Positions 42,206-46,100 of a stretch of 64,000 nucleotides of DNA are shown piece by piece. How positions within the stretch are numbered: the stretch's first letter is position 1; the number at the start of each line of letters is the position of its first letter. Source of the DNA: Promethearchaeati archaeon (GTDB lineage: Archaea; Asgardarchaeota; Heimdallarchaeia; JABLTI01); assembly GCA_013166835.1 (NCBI GenBank), contig JABLTI010000001.1, forward strand, positions 22,852-86,851. The letters are read 5' to 3'. The position numbers and the translations under genes are program-made. The notes below the pieces were generated by a model that saw only the letters and a program-made list of their open reading frames with translations, was not told where the DNA came from and ran no database searches.

Positions 42206-43192
42206 ATGTTTTCCATATCAAACTCCTTTAAACGTCTTGCAAATCATATTCGCATGTGCGGAGAATTAGCTTGCTTACTCGAGGTAAGTGCTACTCCTAA
42301 ACCGGGCAATGTACACCGATTTCAAGATTTTGCAGAAATCCGTTATGAGGATTTTTTAGCTTCTAGTGTCTCCTTGGGTGTTTGGCTTGAAGAACTAGCA
42401 ATGAAGGGTTTACTTCTTAGGGATGATAAGATTAGCTGGCAACAAGTGAATCTAGGAAGAACAATAAAAGAAGCTGTAAAACAGAGCAATTATTTTCATC
42501 AAAGAAGTAATACTAATCTCGGTATAATCCTCCTCCTCTCACCTCTTAGTGTCGCAGCAGGATTAACTATACCTGAAGAAGAACCAAACTGCAATCTTGA
42601 CTTGCTCCAAAAGAATGCTCTTAATGTAATGAAGCACACAACGGTGGAAGATTCCCTTTTTGTTTCAGAAGCTATAGCAAGTGTTTCTCCTGGTGGATTG
42701 GGGAAAGTAGATCAATACGATATTACTGAACCTTCTCTTGAAGAGGACCTTCGCTCAGACGATGTCAATTTACTAAAATTAATGGATATTTGCCAATCGC
42801 GAGATAGCATTTGTTTTGAATTAGCTCTAGGGTACCCAATCACAATTAAAACTGGCTTGGCTGCTTTAAAATGGTCTCTAGCAATAAGAAATGATATTAA
42901 TTTGGCTATTATCGATGCTTACTTAGCTATTCTCTCAAATTATCCTGACACTTTAGTTATTAGGAAATTCGGTGATGAAATAGCACAACGAATCTCTAAA
43001 CGAGCATCAGATATCATCAATGTTGGTGGAGCATTAACCTTAGAAGGTCGACGTGAGCTTGAGGAGCTCGATATAGAATTGAGAGAAGCGGAAGAAAAAA
43101 TAAATCCGGGGACAACCGCGGATATCATTGCATCCACTATTTTTGTATACTTACTTTCTGGTGGAAAACTTGGGGATGGAAAGATAGAATAA
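42206..43192 (+). CDS. citG: Triphosphoribosyl-dephospho-CoA synthase-like protein
   Basis: LEVSATPKPGNVHR, NTNLG, PDTLVIRK, NPGTTAD; ATG at 42206. Confidence 0.9.
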   Translation: MFSISNSFKRLANHIRMCGELACLLEVSATPKPGNVHRFQDFAEIRYEDFLASSVSLGVWLEELAMKGLLLRDDKISWQQVNLGRTIKEAVKQSNYFHQRSNTNLGIILLLSPLSVAAGLTIPEEEPNCNLDLLQKNALNVMKHTTVEDSLFVSEAIASVSPGGLGKVDQYDITEPSLEEDLRSDDVNLLKLMDICQSRDSICFELALGYPITIKTGLAALKWSLAIRNDINLAIIDAYLAILSNYPDTLVIRKFGDEIAQRISKRASDIINVGGALTLEGRRELEELDIELREAEEKINPGTTADIIASTIFVYLLSGGKLGDGKIE

Positions 43193-43334
43193 ACACTTTT
43201 CTCACATTTCAACCATCTTTGTCATTAATAATGTCCTTTTTATAGCTGTAACGAAAACATTATTTTACCCTTTTTGCACTATCAAACAAAACGGATTACG
43301 AAAAACAATAATATTTGAATAATTTAAAGGACGA

Positions 43335-44237
43335 TTGATTGTATTGAGTGAAGAAGAAAAATCTGCCGAAGAGAAAGAAAAGGAATTAGCTTTCTACCGA
43401 AATCAAACCAAAGTCTTACGTGAAAAAAATCGTGATTTGCGAAATGCCTTATTATTAGCTGAATCTCAACAAGAAACCGAGGAATCTGAAGAAACTGCTC
43501 AAGAATCTCTTTCTGATATCAGGAAAATAATTTCTGATTCCAAAAAACAGATTACAGAGAAATTAAGTCAGTTCAAAGAAACCTTGAATGATTCTGATAT
43601 AACCGCAGAATCAACAGTAGATCCTACAGGTGCTCCTGCACAACCAAAGTATAGTACACAAATGGATGGTTCAGAAGTAAAAGCAAGTCAATCAACAGCT
43701 CCTTTGTCAGCAGAAGCAGATGTTTTAATTAGACAAGTTGATTATTTGAAAGTTGAAATTGATCGTCTTGAGACTTTTCTAGAGCAATCCGAGATGGTAA
43801 ATAATCGATTACAAGAGCTTTTATCTAAACACAACATCGATGTTTCTGAAATCACAAAAGCGATTAACGAAGCTTCTAAAACTGCTGTTTCACCTAAAGC
43901 CATCCAAAAACCAGAACCAGACTCAACTCCTGTAGTTACTACACCTGCTGTTCCTGCAAAAATTGAACCAAAACCTGAACCAAAAACAAAGGAATTAGAT
44001 CCGGCAATCGTCAAATTATTTGATGACTTTAAAGCTAAACTAACCAAAAGAATTGGGGATGAAGATATAAAACTAGAAATCCTTAATCTTCGAGAAGAAT
44101 TGATGGATCTCATACCTCATTCGCGAGTTTTCTACGAAATGCAAGTGGAATACCGTCGTTGGAAGCGAGGATCCAGTTCCTTAGATGAATTAAAAGAAGC
44201 TATTAAATTATGGGAAGCGACTATTGGTTCTATTTAG
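43335..44237 (+). CDS. Coiled-coil protein with P/K-rich linker and helical C-terminal domain
   Basis: Heptad-like E/K/L segments and a PKPEPK linker. Confidence 0.75.
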   Translation: MIVLSEEEKSAEEKEKELAFYRNQTKVLREKNRDLRNALLLAESQQETEESEETAQESLSDIRKIISDSKKQITEKLSQFKETLNDSDITAESTVDPTGAPAQPKYSTQMDGSEVKASQSTAPLSAEADVLIRQVDYLKVEIDRLETFLEQSEMVNNRLQELLSKHNIDVSEITKAINEASKTAVSPKAIQKPEPDSTPVVTTPAVPAKIEPKPEPKTKELDPAIVKLFDDFKAKLTKRIGDEDIKLEILNLREELMDLIPHSRVFYEMQVEYRRWKRGSSSLDELKEAIKLWEATIGSI

Positions 44238-44299
44238 AAGCTCTTAGTCTTGTGTTTTCCTTTATTTTTCTTTTGTATTTTTAGAGTATTTTCATAAAT

Positions 44300-44423
44300 G
44301 ATTGTGAAAACGAGAGGGTTAATAGGGAGGGAGGTAAAGAAGGTTCCCTCCCATCGGATGTAGTGGAGGACTGATCCCCAGTAAGTGGGGACAGTTTATC
44401 GAGGTGAGAGGTGAGGTAAGCAT
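44300..44423 (-). ncRNA. Candidate small RNA with a C/U-rich anti-SD-like 5' arm and two GC-rich hairpins
   Basis: TTTATAAT box at 44448-44441; stems 44371-44394 and 44325-44352; GC-rich island in AT-rich DNA. Confidence 0.55.
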
Positions 44424-44451
44424 ACATTATTGCCTTTTCCATTATAAAGTT

Positions 44452-44519
44452 CAATATTACCCGTATAGTTGTTGCAGTAGCTCTCCGAGTATATTCCAAT
44501 ATTACCTTGCTATTACCTT
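44452..44519. promoter_or_regulatory. Three direct repeats (CAA)TATTACC between the candidate sRNA promoter and trmB
   Basis: CAATATTACC at 44452 and 44497, TATTACCTT at 44511. Confidence 0.45.
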
Positions 44520-44640
44520 TTTTCCTCGCTTTTGACCCATTTTTCCTCTTTTCCTTCTGCAATTTTTTTCCTTTTCCATAGATTCTTAAACGAAAATGCT
44601 TTTATTAGATTATTCCATATACTACCATGGTGGTAAATGA

Positions 44641-45441
44641 ATGAGTTTCACCGAGGATGTAATTGAGGAGCTGAAGAAGCTAGGCTTCAATGAGTATCAG
44701 GCAAAAGTCTATACAGCTCTAGTTGGTCTTGGTGTTGCAACTGCCTCTGAGATTTCGCAAGCAAGCGGGGTCCCCCCGAATAAAGTTTATTCTGTAATAG
44801 ATACTTTGAAGAAACGAGGTCTAGTTCTTGCTCAAGAAAGTGACACAAGCACTAATAGGTATCGTCCCCGATCTCCAGATTCGTTTATGAAGGAACTCAG
44901 AACTGATTATGAAACTACATTCAAAAAAACGGAAGATAAGCTATTTGCTCTTTATGAACGCAGTAAGAAAGCGTTTATCCCTGAATTGTGGATTCTCCGT
45001 GGTTCTCAAGCGGTATTCAGTAAGATAAAAGAAATGATTATGGATGCAAATAATGATATTAGTATAGGTATTGATAGTCCGTTTGATTTACATCTCCATG
45101 GAATAGATCAAGTCCTCAGCGAAGCAAGTGGTCATCTAAAGAGTATAACTATAATTACCGGAAAGGATGGGGTTGATAATCCTGGTGAGGTTAATGTTTT
45201 GAAATCCCTTTCTGAATATACTGATGTTAGGGTTTCAGATAATTTCCATGCTATTTGGGTTATTATTGACTCTCTAGAAATTTTGCAAGGAACTTATGCT
45301 CAGTTGGAAGGTGGAATAGAACTAGGAGTTATGGCTACTTGGTCTGATAATCAAGCATTTGCTGAGCTTTGGAAGCGTTTTAGTGATTCCTTGTGGGAAA
45401 ACGCTACTCCTCTAGATAAAATGAAACTGCCTACGGAATAA
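44641..45441 (+). CDS. TrmB family transcriptional regulator
   Basis: LGFNEYQAKVY...ASEISQASGVP..KVY HTH plus C-terminal effector domain. Confidence 0.93.
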   Translation: MSFTEDVIEELKKLGFNEYQAKVYTALVGLGVATASEISQASGVPPNKVYSVIDTLKKRGLVLAQESDTSTNRYRPRSPDSFMKELRTDYETTFKKTEDKLFALYERSKKAFIPELWILRGSQAVFSKIKEMIMDANNDISIGIDSPFDLHLHGIDQVLSEASGHLKSITIITGKDGVDNPGEVNVLKSLSEYTDVRVSDNFHAIWVIIDSLEILQGTYAQLEGGIELGVMATWSDNQAFAELWKRFSDSLWENATPLDKMKLPTE

Positions 45442-45461
45442 AAAAAAAGATGAATTTTGAA

Positions 45462-46100
45462 TTAAGCTTTTTGCCAGAAGCTGAATTCGCCTTCTTTTTC
45501 TTCTTCTTTCTCATCTTTCTTGGTTTTACTTGCTCTTTTCTTTGACTCTCGATCCATGATTACTTTTACGATTCCTTCGAAAAGATCTGGAACACTAACT
45601 CCTGTTTTTGCAGAAGTTTCCAAATAAATGAGATTCTTATCAGCAGCAAAAGCTTGAGCTTCTTCTGTTGAAACCTTTCTTTGATCTCCAATATCCACTT
45701 TGTTTCCAGCAAGCACTACAGGCACATCACCAGCATTTTGACGTATCTGTTTTAACCAATAATCCAAACTGTTGAAAGAATTCCTATTGGTGATATCATA
45801 AACTAGTACACCACCAGCTGCACCTGAGAAATAAAACGGTAAAAGGGACATAACAAATTCCTGACCACCTGTATCCCACAACTGTAATTTTACATTTGCT
45901 TCGTTTACTGTAAGGTTCTTGGTCATGAAGTCTACCCCTAATGTTGGCAAATAGGATTCCCTGAAACGATCTTCTGCAAAACGAATAGTGAGACTTGTTT
46001 TTCCCACCTTCCCTGCTCCCACTACAATAACTTTGAATAGATGTTGATATCTTGGTCCTCTTGTTTTAGAAATCCTTGTCCGCTCCTTGCTTGTATCCAT
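45462..46100 (-). CDS. Rab-like small GTPase (eukaryotic signature protein)
   Basis: GAGKVGKT, PTLGVDF, KLQLWDTGGQE, LVYDIT, NKVD, ETSAK. Confidence 0.95.
   Translation of the reverse strand: MDTSKERTRISKTRGPRYQHLFKVIVVGAGKVGKTSLTIRFAEDRFRESYLPTLGVDFMTKNLTVNEANVKLQLWDTGGQEFVMSLLPFYFSGAAGGVLVYDITNRNSFNSLDYWLKQIRQNAGDVPVVLAGNKVDIGDQRKVSTEEAQAFAADKNLIYLETSAKTGVSVPDLFEGIVKVIMDRESKKRASKTKKDEKEEEKEGEFSFWQKA

What the first reader, a model, noticed from the sequence alone, without database searches (positions are those of the whole stretch)
44300..44448. Candidate sRNA with a tandem anti-Shine-Dalgarno 5' arm and repeated UUAC loop motifs
Seen on the minus strand after TTTATAAT: AUGCUUACCUCACCUCUCACCUC, hairpin CUG-UCCCCA-CUUAC-UGGGGA-U-CAG, linker UCCUCC, hairpin GGGAGGGA-ACCUUCUUUACC-UCCCUCCC, then a pyrimidine-rich tail. 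UCACCUC occurs twice and YUUAC three times in unpaired positions. Established: UCACCUCC is the 16S anti-SD, and Methanosarcina sRNAs use C/U-rich regions to mask RBSs. Inference: a multi-target translational repressor or protein sponge. Speculative: AUGCUUACCUC matches the U1 snRNA 5' end AUACUUACCUG at 9 of 11 positions, notable in an Asgard-like genome. No Sm site or U1 cloverleaf is evident, and anti-SD similarity alone could explain the match.
Basis: partly seen in the sequence, partly recalled or inferred. Interest (0 to 1): 0.8.

Follow-up and report, generated by a model that had tools for sequence, protein, structure and literature searches.

The report
Conserved small RNA in Heimdall archaea
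This is a real, previously undescribed small structured RNA gene, found only in one family of Heimdall (Asgard) archaea, whose exposed stretches copy the ribosome's mRNA-docking sequence; the suggested likeness to the eukaryotic splicing RNA U1 is a coincidence.

Summary
The sequence features are at the stated place on the minus strand. The 403-nt intergenic region holds a conserved, roughly 105-111-nt RNA gene. It has a TATA box (44448-44441), a likely start near 44417, a 5' arm of tandem CCUC/UCACCUC blocks, hairpin 1, a near-invariant 20-nt linker, hairpin 2 and a U-rich tail. A covariance model finds one copy in 11 of 12 genomes of one Heimdallarchaeial family. It finds none in 71 other genomes of the class and nothing convincing in 150 further genomes sampled across the phylum. 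Hairpin 1 changes sequence completely between lineages but always pairs (16 of 16 distinct sequences). Indels exclude coding. Rfam has no match. UCACCUC equals 7 nt of the 16S 3' tail of congeners, and exact complements of the 5' arm peak at the Shine-Dalgarno position of this genome's genes. The U1-like 5' motif and the YUUAC loops are not conserved, and the former probably lies upstream of the transcript start. The gene is always divergent from a TrmB-family regulator gene. The best reading is a trans-acting anti-Shine-Dalgarno riboregulator. Targets and expression remain untested: no RNA runs exist, and target predictions were not conserved.

The parts
44307..44417 (-). Predicted sRNA transcript (about 105-111 nt). 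G+C is 0.50 against 0.34 for the genome.
   Evidence: Covariance models R1 and R2 match 44300-region homologues at 81-128 bits. The ends are inferred from the TATA distance and the T-run, not measured.
44441..44448 (-). TATA box TTTATAAT of the sRNA promoter
   Evidence: Conserved in all 11 aligned genomes (TTTATAA, TTTAATA, TTTATAT or ATTAATA), 24-26 nt upstream of the conserved CCUCA block.
44417..44417 (-). Inferred transcription start: a purine directly before CCUCA
   Evidence: It lies 24 nt after the TATA box, and the base is R (A or G) in all homologues. This is an inference from the usual archaeal TATA-to-start distance (recalled), not a measurement.
44397..44417 (-). 5' arm ACCUCACCUCUCACCUCGAUA: tandem anti-SD-like blocks, predicted single-stranded
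   Evidence: UCACCUCGA is invariant in 16 of 16 sequences. Mean unpaired probability is 0.84. UCACCUC equals 7 nt of the 16S tail of congeners. Complements peak at -20..-11 of ORF starts.
44370..44395 (-). Hairpin 1 (10 bp, one bulged U, 5-nt loop)
   Evidence: It folds in 16 of 16 distinct homologues with 7-12 bp and about 9 unrelated stem sequences, z -3.2 to -6.8. Double-sided changes are counted.
44354..44373 (-). Linker CAGUCCUCCACUACAUCCGA, the most conserved block
   Evidence: 19-21 of 21-24 positions are identical in all homologues. Mean unpaired probability is 0.78. The 12 family genomes hold no complement with 3 or fewer mismatches other than the gene itself.
44325..44352 (-). Hairpin 2: GGGAGGGA, a 12-nt pyrimidine-rich loop, then UCCCUCCC
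   Evidence: 96.9% of cells are paired. Two positions are swapped compensatorily in the L009/L044 lineage (GGAGGGGA/UCCCCUCC).
44307..44324 (-). 3' tail with a semi-conserved YUUAAYY and a T-run (44310-44307), the likely termination region
   Evidence: Runs of 3 to 8 T lie within 5-25 nt after hairpin 2 in the homologues. The 3' end is not measured.
44453..44461 (-). GGTAATATT box 3, directly upstream of the sRNA TATA; a candidate regulator site
   Evidence: Conserved as G-R-T-R-W-T-A-T in the 11 aligned genomes. It is one of only 2 GGTAATAT copies in the 64-kb window.
44498..44517 (-). GGTAATA box 1 (44517-44511) and GGTAATATT box 2 (44506-44498), 11 nt apart start to start
   Evidence: The tandem arrangement is essentially unique in the genome.
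44641..45441 (+). Divergent TrmB-family transcription regulator gene (266 aa)
   Evidence: Pfam TrmB HTH, E 2.5e-19. It is divergent from the sRNA in 19 of 19 loci. The orthologue is present in 11 of 12 family genomes.
43335..44237 (+). Convergent 300-aa coiled-coil-like protein gene with no Pfam family
   Evidence: It is convergent with the sRNA in 17 of 19 loci; the other 2 are cut by contig ends.

Best explanation
The locus is an independent gene for a structured non-coding RNA of about 105-111 nt on the minus strand.

Shown:
- It has a conserved TATA box.
- Two hairpins are kept by compensatory change.
- Two long single-stranded pyrimidine blocks are almost invariant.
- There is one copy per genome.
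- It is restricted to one family of Heimdallarchaeia.
- It always lies divergent from a TrmB-family regulator gene.

Inferred:
- Transcription starts at the purine just before CCUCA, so the RNA begins with a tandem copy of the 16S anti-Shine-Dalgarno core (UCACCUC twice). Further CCUCC motifs sit in the linker and in the 3' arm of hairpin 2.
- The exposed CCUC blocks pair with the GGAGG/GAGGUGA Shine-Dalgarno (SD) sequences of mRNAs and compete with the 30S subunit, lowering translation of a set of SD-led genes. Methanosarcina sRNA41 and sRNA154 work this way, as do the C-rich regions of RoxS/RsaE in Firmicutes.
- The neighbouring TrmB-family protein, acting through the GGTAATA boxes next to the TATA box, probably sets its level.

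My odds are about 0.85 that it is a genuine minus-strand structured ncRNA gene, about 0.45 that its main action is anti-SD base-pairing, and about 0.4 that the TrmB-family neighbour controls it. The confidence given for this entry (0.45) is that of the anti-SD mechanism.
For: - Conservation: homologous intergenic regions occur in congeners and a second genus. In the more distant ones, the part that still aligns is the candidate itself (query 185-322, equal to window 44456-44319).
- Distribution: model R1 hits 11 of 83 class genomes, namely G000 plus 10 of the 11 other family f1 genomes, and 0 of 71 elsewhere, with one hit each. A pattern scan adds 10 genome and 8 metagenome contigs, giving 16 distinct sequences.
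- Structure: hairpin 1 forms in 16 of 16 despite about 9 unrelated stems. 91.8% of cells are paired against 52-68% for slid partners. There are 6 pairs and 14 cells with double-sided changes, and the covariation score is 0.255 against 0.157+-0.016, reached by 0 of 500 shuffles.
- Not coding: an 8-nt indel in the 5' arm, 1-2-nt indels in the linker, and no conserved ATG.
- Strand: the TATA box is conserved 24-26 nt upstream of CCUCA on the minus strand. G-U pairs occur in hairpin 1 of L011 (2) and L050 (1). T-runs directly after the stop codon of the upstream + gene argue against read-through.
- Anti-SD character: the 16S 3' end of three congeners reads ...GGAUCACCUCCU. GGAGG, GGTGA and GTGAT are 8-9.6-fold enriched at -18..-2 of 2653 crude ORFs. 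Exact 7-mer complements of the 5' arm number 59 in the -20..-11 bin against 1-18 in other bins, and 8-mers 18 against 0-6. Mean unpaired probability is 0.84 for the 5' arm and 0.78 for the linker.
- Link to TrmB: divergent in 19 of 19 loci. The only two GGTAATAT copies in 64 kb lie between the two genes.
- Precedents: anti-RBS sRNAs in M. mazei (PMC5867862, passages read). Four C-rich regions of RoxS bind SD sequences (PMC5419742, passages read).
Against: - No expression evidence of any kind: no RNA run holds the locus, so transcript, strand and ends are inferred.
- The plus strand folds to a lower energy and z-score than the minus strand (-41.3, z -3.78, against -29.6, z -2.94). Thermodynamics alone does not pick the strand.
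- RNAduplex energies of the 5' arm and linker at 2653 start regions are no better than in coding interiors (means -8.15 against -7.69 and -8.24 against -8.10, with equal tails).
- For five candidate targets (thiolase, PorB, PdxS, a class I aminoacyl-tRNA synthetase and one further protein not run through Pfam), the complementarity beyond the SD core is not kept in orthologues.
- The 20-nt linker has no complement with 3 or fewer mismatches anywhere in the 12 family genomes.
- Invariance over about 20 nt, plus sequence-level conservation of hairpin 2, exceeds what a short seed needs. It fits protein recognition equally well.
- Adjacency to the TrmB-family gene may only reflect general synteny within one family.
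- The covariation counts come from an alignment fitted to the model.
Confidence: 0.45

Rival explanations
1. The RNA binds protein rather than mRNA. The repeated single-stranded CCUC/UCAC pyrimidine blocks and the invariant linker would be recognition sites for an RNA-binding protein. One candidate (recalled) is a KH-domain factor that normally holds the 16S 3' tail, such as Dim2/Pno1 or Nob1. The RNA would then titrate or scaffold that protein.
For: Conservation runs over 20 nt of linker, and hairpin 2 is conserved in sequence as well as in pairing. No long complementary target exists, and no conserved extended mRNA complementarity was found.
Against: There are only 4-5 motif copies, far fewer than in known sponge RNAs (recalled). 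No partner protein has been identified. The complement peak at the SD position is equally expected for base-pairing. Nothing here tests binding.
Confidence: 0.25
2. The element acts in cis or at the DNA level. Conservation would then reflect operator sites and divergent-promoter architecture of the TrmB-family gene, and any transcript would be a by-product.
For: The intergenic region carries conserved repeated boxes and a near-palindrome over the TrmB leader. The module is inherited together.
Against: Hairpin 1 keeps pairing while its sequence is replaced, which DNA-binding sites do not explain. The G-U pairs of L011 and L050 would be A-C mismatches in a cruciform's other strand. The element lies more than 190 nt from the TrmB start, beyond that gene's own proximal promoter-like block.
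Confidence: 0.08
3. The functional RNA is the plus strand: a purine-rich, SD-like 3'-UTR element of the upstream coiled-coil gene, or a long leader of the TrmB-family gene.
For: The plus strand folds into the same two hairpins with lower energy and z-score. The hairpins are mostly Watson-Crick, so they fit both strands (where reverse-complement energies are similar in most sequences).
Against: No conserved promoter faces this way. The TATA-like run at 44290-44299 is present only in G000. T-runs directly follow the upstream gene's stop codon. A plus-strand start from the shared TATA would run away from the element. The G-U pairs in L011 and L050 become A-C (-10.8 against -6.7, and -11.4 against -9.6). 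The 43-aa plus-strand ORF crosses regions with non-triplet indels.
Confidence: 0.07
4. It is a U1-snRNA-like or proto-spliceosomal RNA whose 5' end recognises splice-site-like sequences.
Against: The matching AUGCUUA part is present in only 6 of 16 distinct homologues and is replaced by unrelated bases in the rest. It lies upstream of the inferred start. Rfam, which includes the U1 family, gives no match at E<=10 here or at E<=5 in 5 homologous loci. There are two hairpins, not four, and no conserved Sm-type U-run apart from the terminator region.
Confidence: 0.01
5. It encodes a small protein, either the 34-aa or 93-aa minus-strand ORF or the 43-aa plus-strand ORF.
For: The ORFs exist in G000.
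Against: The ATG at 44423 is absent outside the G000 clade. The 8-nt indel, the 1-2-nt indels and the variable hairpin lengths break every frame. The 93-aa ORF has no Pfam match.
Confidence: 0.01

Closest known systems
Methanosarcina mazei sRNA41 and sRNA154 (archaeal intergenic sRNAs that mask ribosome binding sites)
   Same: It is an intergenic archaeal sRNA with its own promoter and a stem-loop scaffold. Unpaired pyrimidine-rich stretches are complementary to ribosome binding sites. The proposed action is translational repression (PMC5867862, passages read).
   Different: No sequence or covariance-model relation was found: there is no Rfam match here. The phylum is different. Here the anti-SD copies are tandem and sit at the very 5' end. 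No target or condition is known, and none of the candidate targets tested was conserved.
RoxS/RsaE of Firmicutes (sRNA with several C-rich regions that bind SD sequences)
   Same: Several C-rich single-stranded motifs in one small RNA pair with G-rich SD sequences (PMC5419742, passages read).
   Different: RoxS/RsaE is bacterial and unrelated in sequence; Rfam as a whole gave no match here (that it holds an RsaE model is recalled, not shown by any search). The motif here is CCUC/UCACCUC, an exact copy of the 16S tail core, rather than CCCC.
Divergent regulator-sRNA gene pairs in bacteria (SgrR-SgrS, OxyR-OxyS, GcvA-GcvB; recalled, not checked in any call)
   Same: The sRNA gene is divergently transcribed from a transcription-factor gene, with conserved repeats between them.
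   Different: Control by the neighbouring TrmB-family protein is only inferred here. I know of no such archaeal pair that has been described, and none turned up in searches.
U1 snRNA
   Different: The match is not conserved and is probably not transcribed. There is no Rfam match, no four-stem fold and no Sm site.
CsrB/RsmZ-type protein-sponge RNAs (recalled)
   Same: A short motif is repeated in unpaired positions of a small structured RNA.
   Different: The motif is CCUC rather than GGA. There are only 4-5 copies, and no candidate partner protein has been identified.

Membership tests
U1 snRNA (Rfam U1 family) | Conserved 5' single-stranded splice-site recognition sequence | tested here: not met
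   The AUGCUUA part is present in only 6 of 16 distinct homologues; only CCUC is conserved. It lies upstream of the inferred start.
U1 snRNA (Rfam U1 family) | Match to the family covariance model (four-stem fold, Sm site) | tested here: not met
   cmscan of all 4227 Rfam families at E<=10 on 43000-46000, and at E<=5 on 5 homologous loci, gave no match at the element. The fold has two hairpins.
Any described RNA family (Rfam 15) | Covariance-model match | tested here: not met
   The only hits were weak snoRNA-, miRNA- or sRNA-like matches elsewhere in the loci, all below their gathering scores.
Trans-acting anti-RBS sRNA (functional class: M. mazei sRNA41/sRNA154, RoxS/RsaE) | Independent transcription unit in an intergenic region | tested here: inconclusive
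   A conserved TATA box lies 24-26 nt upstream and T-runs lie downstream. No downstream gene is on the same strand. No RNA data exist.
Trans-acting anti-RBS sRNA (functional class: M. mazei sRNA41/sRNA154, RoxS/RsaE) | Conserved, accessible pyrimidine-rich segments complementary to the organism's SD sequence | tested here: met
   UCACCUC is identical to the 16S tail core of congeners. SD 5-mers are enriched 8-9.6-fold. Complement 7- and 8-mers peak at -20..-11. Unpaired probabilities are 0.84 and 0.78.
Trans-acting anti-RBS sRNA (functional class: M. mazei sRNA41/sRNA154, RoxS/RsaE) | Identified mRNA targets whose translation changes with the sRNA | tested here: inconclusive
   There is no energy enrichment at start sites. 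The extended matches of five candidates are not conserved in orthologues. The functional test cannot be done with these tools.
Archaeal C/D-box or H/ACA guide sRNA | C and D boxes with a K-turn; or a pseudouridylation pocket with an ACA box directly 3' of the stem | tested here: not met
   No box motifs are conserved in the alignment. Hairpin 1 has no internal pocket. No Rfam snoRNA model matches at the element. There is no exceptional complementarity to 16S rRNA against shuffled seeds; 23S rRNA was not tested.
Small protein-coding gene | Reading frame and start codon conserved across homologues | tested here: not met
   Non-triplet indels and loss of the ATG.

The most novel reading that the evidence does not exclude
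The RNA would be a dedicated mimic of the 16S rRNA 3' tail. Tandem single-stranded copies of the anti-Shine-Dalgarno core, plus an SD/anti-SD hairpin, would be made under control of a sugar-sensing TrmB-family regulator. It would act globally, either by soaking up the SD sequences of many mRNAs or by titrating a factor that binds the 16S 3' end during ribosome maturation or initiation. That would be a metabolic brake on translation in the archaeal lineage nearest to eukaryotes.
Probability: 0.12. Interest if true: 0.75.

Novelty: new member of a known kind. Interest (0 to 1): 0.45.

Why it matters
No regulatory RNA of Asgard archaea turned up in my two literature searches (listings only). Rfam has no family for this element. 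It is therefore a well-supported first handle on riboregulation in Heimdallarchaeia, with a conserved promoter, covarying hairpins and single copy in a defined family. Its form is simple and testable: a 5' end made of tandem copies of the ribosome's anti-SD core, next to a candidate regulator. If the anti-SD mechanism holds, it shows that SD masking by sRNAs extends to the closest archaeal relatives of eukaryotes. It also gives a compact RNA and regulator pair for in-vitro work on organisms that mostly cannot be cultured. It does not bear on the origin of the spliceosome.

Tried and rejected
- Rfam at permissive thresholds found nothing at the element, either on the window region or on five homologous loci.
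- The bacterial-type promoter and terminator scan is not informative for an archaeon.
- Expression: the look-up of sequencing runs listed no RNA holder (22 runs listed, 20 holding all or part of the stretch, none on record as RNA). Read laying was therefore not used, and expression stays untested.
- Target search:
  - RNAduplex of the 5' arm and linker against 2653 crude start regions and against interior coding windows showed no enrichment.
  - An ungapped complement scan of the genome gave, as best linker hit, the glycine-rich motif codons of tandem methyltransferase genes on contig C88. I judged this chance.
  - 8-mer candidates were listed. Ten of them were run through Pfam: thiolase, an HMG-CoA-synthase-like protein, PorB, RIO kinase, an FAD/NAD oxidoreductase, uL10, a Macro-domain protein, a methyladenine glycosylase, FEN1 and a beta-propeller protein. 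PdxS, the aminoacyl-tRNA synthetase and the MPN-like protein are my own readings of the translations, not Pfam results. The set has no coherent theme.
  - Five candidates were followed into orthologues, and only the SD core was kept.
- Linker against TrmB mRNA codons 4-11: -22.5 kcal/mol in G000 but -9.5 to -12.1 in the five other lineages scored. The script stopped with an error before L018, L048, L045 and L050. Rejected as a conserved interaction.
- 16S rRNA complementarity is no better than for shuffled seeds. 23S rRNA and tRNAs were not tested.
- A complement of the linker with 3 or fewer mismatches in the 12 family genomes matched only the gene itself, in 8 genomes. The other 4 carry linker indels or lack the locus.
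- The tandem anti-SD 16-mer elsewhere in the class gave 5 one-mismatch matches in 4 genomes outside the family, against 4 matches for the reversed control. That is chance level.
- Homologues beside distant TrmB-family genes of two other families: none, all below 12 bits.
- Phylum sample: five hits at 23-26 bits. The four inspected lie in long open frames and lack hairpin 2, so I rejected them; the fifth was not inspected.
- G008 lacks the RNA, the TrmB orthologue and the coiled-coil gene. The region is probably unassembled, so this is not evidence of loss.
- A regulon search with the tandem GGTAATA box found nothing.
- tRNA upstream regions gave a local promoter picture but no start-site calibration.
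- Supplementary files of papers were not consulted.
Full report
**What is there**

In order it holds:
- TTTATAAT at 44448-44441;
- about 24 nt later, ACCUCACCUCUCACCUCGAUA (44417-44397);
- a 10-bp hairpin with one bulged U (44395-44370);
- CAGUCCUCCACUACAUCCGA (44373-44354, sharing CAG and the U after it with the stem);
- the hairpin GGGAGGGA / 12-nt loop / UCCCUCCC (44352-44325);
- a pyrimidine-rich tail with a short T-run (44310-44307).

The second of these belongs to the best-conserved block. The two hairpins are the minimum-free-energy fold (-29.6 kcal/mol, z -2.94). The reverse strand folds into the same hairpins at even lower energy (-41.3, z -3.78), so energy does not choose the strand.

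**Is it more than chance?**

Yes, by conservation.
- The element is single-copy in its own assembly.
- A DNA search of 40 relatives found the whole intergenic region at 90-91% identity in three congeners and at 72-73% in two. In four more distant congeners only two islands still aligned: the 50 nt before the TrmB start, and query 125/185/225-316/324, which is the candidate itself. A second genus matched weakly over the same part.
- MAFFT of 11 loci shows the blocks.
- A covariance model (R1) run over 83 genomes of the class hit 11. These are G000 and 10 of the other 11 genomes of family f1. None of the 71 genomes of six other families was hit, and each positive genome had one hit.
- The one family genome without it (G008, 90% complete) also lacks the TrmB orthologue and the upstream coiled-coil gene. 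The region is probably unassembled there.
- An exact-pattern scan found 10 contigs in the species-genome collection. Eight are titled Heimdallarchaeota, one Promethearchaeati and one Bathyarchaeia. The scan also found 8 metagenome contigs.
- All 29 loci searched gave one hit of 81-126 bits, amounting to 16 distinct sequences.
- A refined model (R2) run on 151 genomes sampled across the phylum gave only G000 as a strong hit, plus five hits of 23-26 bits. The four I inspected lie inside long open frames and lack hairpin 2. I treat them as chance.

**Structure**

Hairpin 1 is the clearest evidence. The stretch between the invariant CCUCGA and AGUCCUCC folds into a 7-12-bp hairpin in 16 of 16 distinct sequences (z -3.2 to -6.8). 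The stems are unrelated between lineages. Examples are CUGUCCCCA/UGGGGAUCAG, CUAUCCCCA/...UUAG, UACCC/GGGUA, AUCCCAAA/UUUGGGAU, CCCUAUUU/AAAUAGGG, GCUCCUA/UAGGAGC and UGCCCCU/AGGGGCA.

Hairpin 2 is nearly fixed in sequence. In one lineage it swaps two adjacent pairs compensatorily (GGAGGGGA/UCCCCUCC).

On the model-fitted alignment A3:
- 91.8% of 256 cells are standard pairs, against 52-68% when partners are slid by 1-3 columns;
- 6 of 16 pairs and 14 cells have changes on both sides;
- the covariation score is 0.255 against 0.157+-0.016 in shuffles (0 of 500 reach it).

That alignment leans towards the structure. It also still misaligns the shifted helices of four lineages, so it both flatters and understates. 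In total 39 columns are invariant. The 5' arm and linker are 18-21 of 21 and 19-21 of 21-24 identical in most sequences, while hairpin 1 drops to 9 of 26.

**Not coding**

The ATG at 44423 exists only in the G000 clade. An 8-nt deletion removes one CCUCUCA unit in two species. The linker has 1- and 2-nt insertions, and the hairpin lengths vary. No frame survives on either strand.

**Strand and ends (inferred)**

- The TATA-like heptamer is kept in all 11 aligned genomes, 24-26 nt upstream of CCUCA. The base just before CCUCA is always a purine. With the usual archaeal spacing (recalled), the start falls at about 44417. The RNA then begins with the anti-SD-like arm, and the AUGCUU of the 'U1-like' motif is promoter-proximal DNA, not RNA.
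- A plus-strand TATA-like run at 44290-44299 is not conserved.
- T-runs follow the upstream gene's stop codon directly.
- The TrmB-family gene has its own conserved proximal block. It resembles the BRE/TATA pattern seen upstream of this genome's tRNA genes.
- G-U pairs in hairpin 1 of two lineages favour the minus sense (-10.8 against -6.7, and -11.4 against -9.6). One lineage folds better in the reverse sense.
- I put the minus-strand reading at about 0.85.
- No RNA-seq run holds the locus.

**Anti-Shine-Dalgarno (SD) character**

- The MAG itself has no 16S gene. Three congeners end their 16S with ...GCGGCUGGAUCACCUCCU, so UCACCUC, present twice in tandem, equals 7 nt of that tail.
- The genome does use SD sequences. 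GGAGG, GGTGA and GTGAT are 8-9.6 times more frequent at -18..-2 than at -40..-24 of 2653 crudely called ORFs.
- Exact complements of the 5' arm pile up in the -20..-11 bin: 7-mers 59 against 1-18 in the other eleven bins, and 8-mers 18 against 0-6. The linker shows a weaker peak.
- Both blocks are predicted unpaired (0.84 and 0.78 on average).
- In three lineages the downstream half of the 5' arm, from CUAUC to GAUAG, forms a mini-hairpin that shows ACCUC in its loop.

**What I could not show**

- Duplex energies at start sites are no better than inside genes. Glu-rich, GAG-rich coding sequence pairs just as well.
- Candidate targets with 8-nt matches are a mixed bag. Their complementarity beyond the SD core is lost in orthologues.
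- The attractive pairing of the linker with codons 4-11 of the divergent TrmB mRNA (-22.5 kcal/mol) is confined to the G000 clade.
- There is no special match to 16S rRNA.
- No near-complement of the 20-nt linker exists anywhere in the 12 family genomes.
- The tandem anti-SD 16-mer is not found beyond chance outside the family.

The long invariance of the linker, and of hairpin 2 in sequence, therefore keeps a protein-binding role well alive.

**Context**

- The RNA gene is divergent from a TrmB-family regulator gene in 19 of 19 loci. That gene has the Pfam TrmB HTH domain at E 2.5e-19 and is 67-96% identical in protein across the loci.
- It is convergent with a 300-aa protein of no known family in 17 of 19 loci; the other two are cut by contig ends.
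- Between the two promoters lie three direct GGTAATA(TT) boxes. One abuts the sRNA TATA. The only two GGTAATAT octamers in the 64-kb window are here.
- By analogy with divergent regulator-sRNA pairs in bacteria (recalled), I infer that the TrmB-family protein controls the RNA. This is untested and could be mere synteny.

**Comparison and verdict**

- It works most like the anti-RBS sRNAs of Methanosarcina (review PMC5867862, passages) and the multi-C-rich-region sRNA RoxS/RsaE (PMC5419742, passages).
- It is not a member of any described family.
- It is not U1-like.
- Two full-text searches (listings only) showed no paper on Asgard regulatory sRNAs.
- I class it as a new member of a known kind. 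It is a solid gene prediction with moderate interest, and its mechanism and expression are still open.

Noticed in passing
window 44453-44461, 44498-44506, 44511-44517 (minus strand): Three direct GGTAATA(TT) boxes lie between the sRNA and TrmB promoters. Boxes 1 and 2 are 11 nt apart start to start, and box 3 abuts the sRNA TATA. They are conserved in degenerate form across the family. The window's only two GGTAATAT octamers are here. They are candidate operator sites.
   Followed up: partly
window 44621-44634 (+): A near-palindrome, ACTACCATGGTGGT (12 of 14 symmetric), overlaps the SD-like GGTGGT just before the TrmB start. The surrounding 24 nt are almost invariant in the 11 aligned genomes. 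This may be an autoregulatory site.
   Followed up: no
window 44650-44672 (+) against 44354-44374 (-): The sRNA linker can pair with codons 4-11 of the divergent TrmB mRNA at -22.5 kcal/mol in the G000 clade. The same pairing reaches only -9.5 to -12.1 in five other lineages, so it is probably a by-product of GAG-rich codons.
   Followed up: yes
window 45462-46100 (-): A Ras/Rab-family small GTPase gene (Pfam Ras, E 2.9e-53), of the kind typical of Asgard genomes, lies just downstream of the TrmB-family gene.
   Followed up: no
window 45416-45529: Two weak C/D-snoRNA-like Rfam matches (19-20 bits, E 1.4 and 8.5, far below their gathering scores) fall in the A/G-rich gap between the TrmB-family gene and the GTPase gene. 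They are probably chance.
   Followed up: no
L035 (genome contigs record titled Bathyarchaeia): One record titled Candidatus Bathyarchaeia carries an RNA identical to that of G009 (same genus as the window) and of metagenome locus L043. The label looks inconsistent with the Heimdallarchaeota titles of the other hits.
   Followed up: no
L124-L128 and G000:C6, upstream of the PdxS-like gene: A long palindrome of the form TATACAAGTT-ATAACTTGTATA sits 15-25 nt upstream of the PdxS start. It is clearest in G000, G004, G009 and G010 and degenerate in G006 and G011. It looks like an operator and is unrelated to the finding.
   Followed up: no
G000:C88:2258-4137: Three tandem paralogous class I methyltransferase genes (203-210 aa) are present. 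Their glycine-rich motif codons gave the best chance complement to the sRNA linker.
   Followed up: partly
G003:C76:13816-14022: A second, partial copy of the TrmB-family gene (residues 198-266, 93% identical) sits at a contig end in G003. It is likely an assembly fragment or strain variant.
   Followed up: no
L010:703-773 (-): A SNORD18-like C/D-box match of 31.9 bits (E 0.014, gathering score 41) lies inside the TrmB-family coding region of G001. It is probably chance.
   Followed up: no
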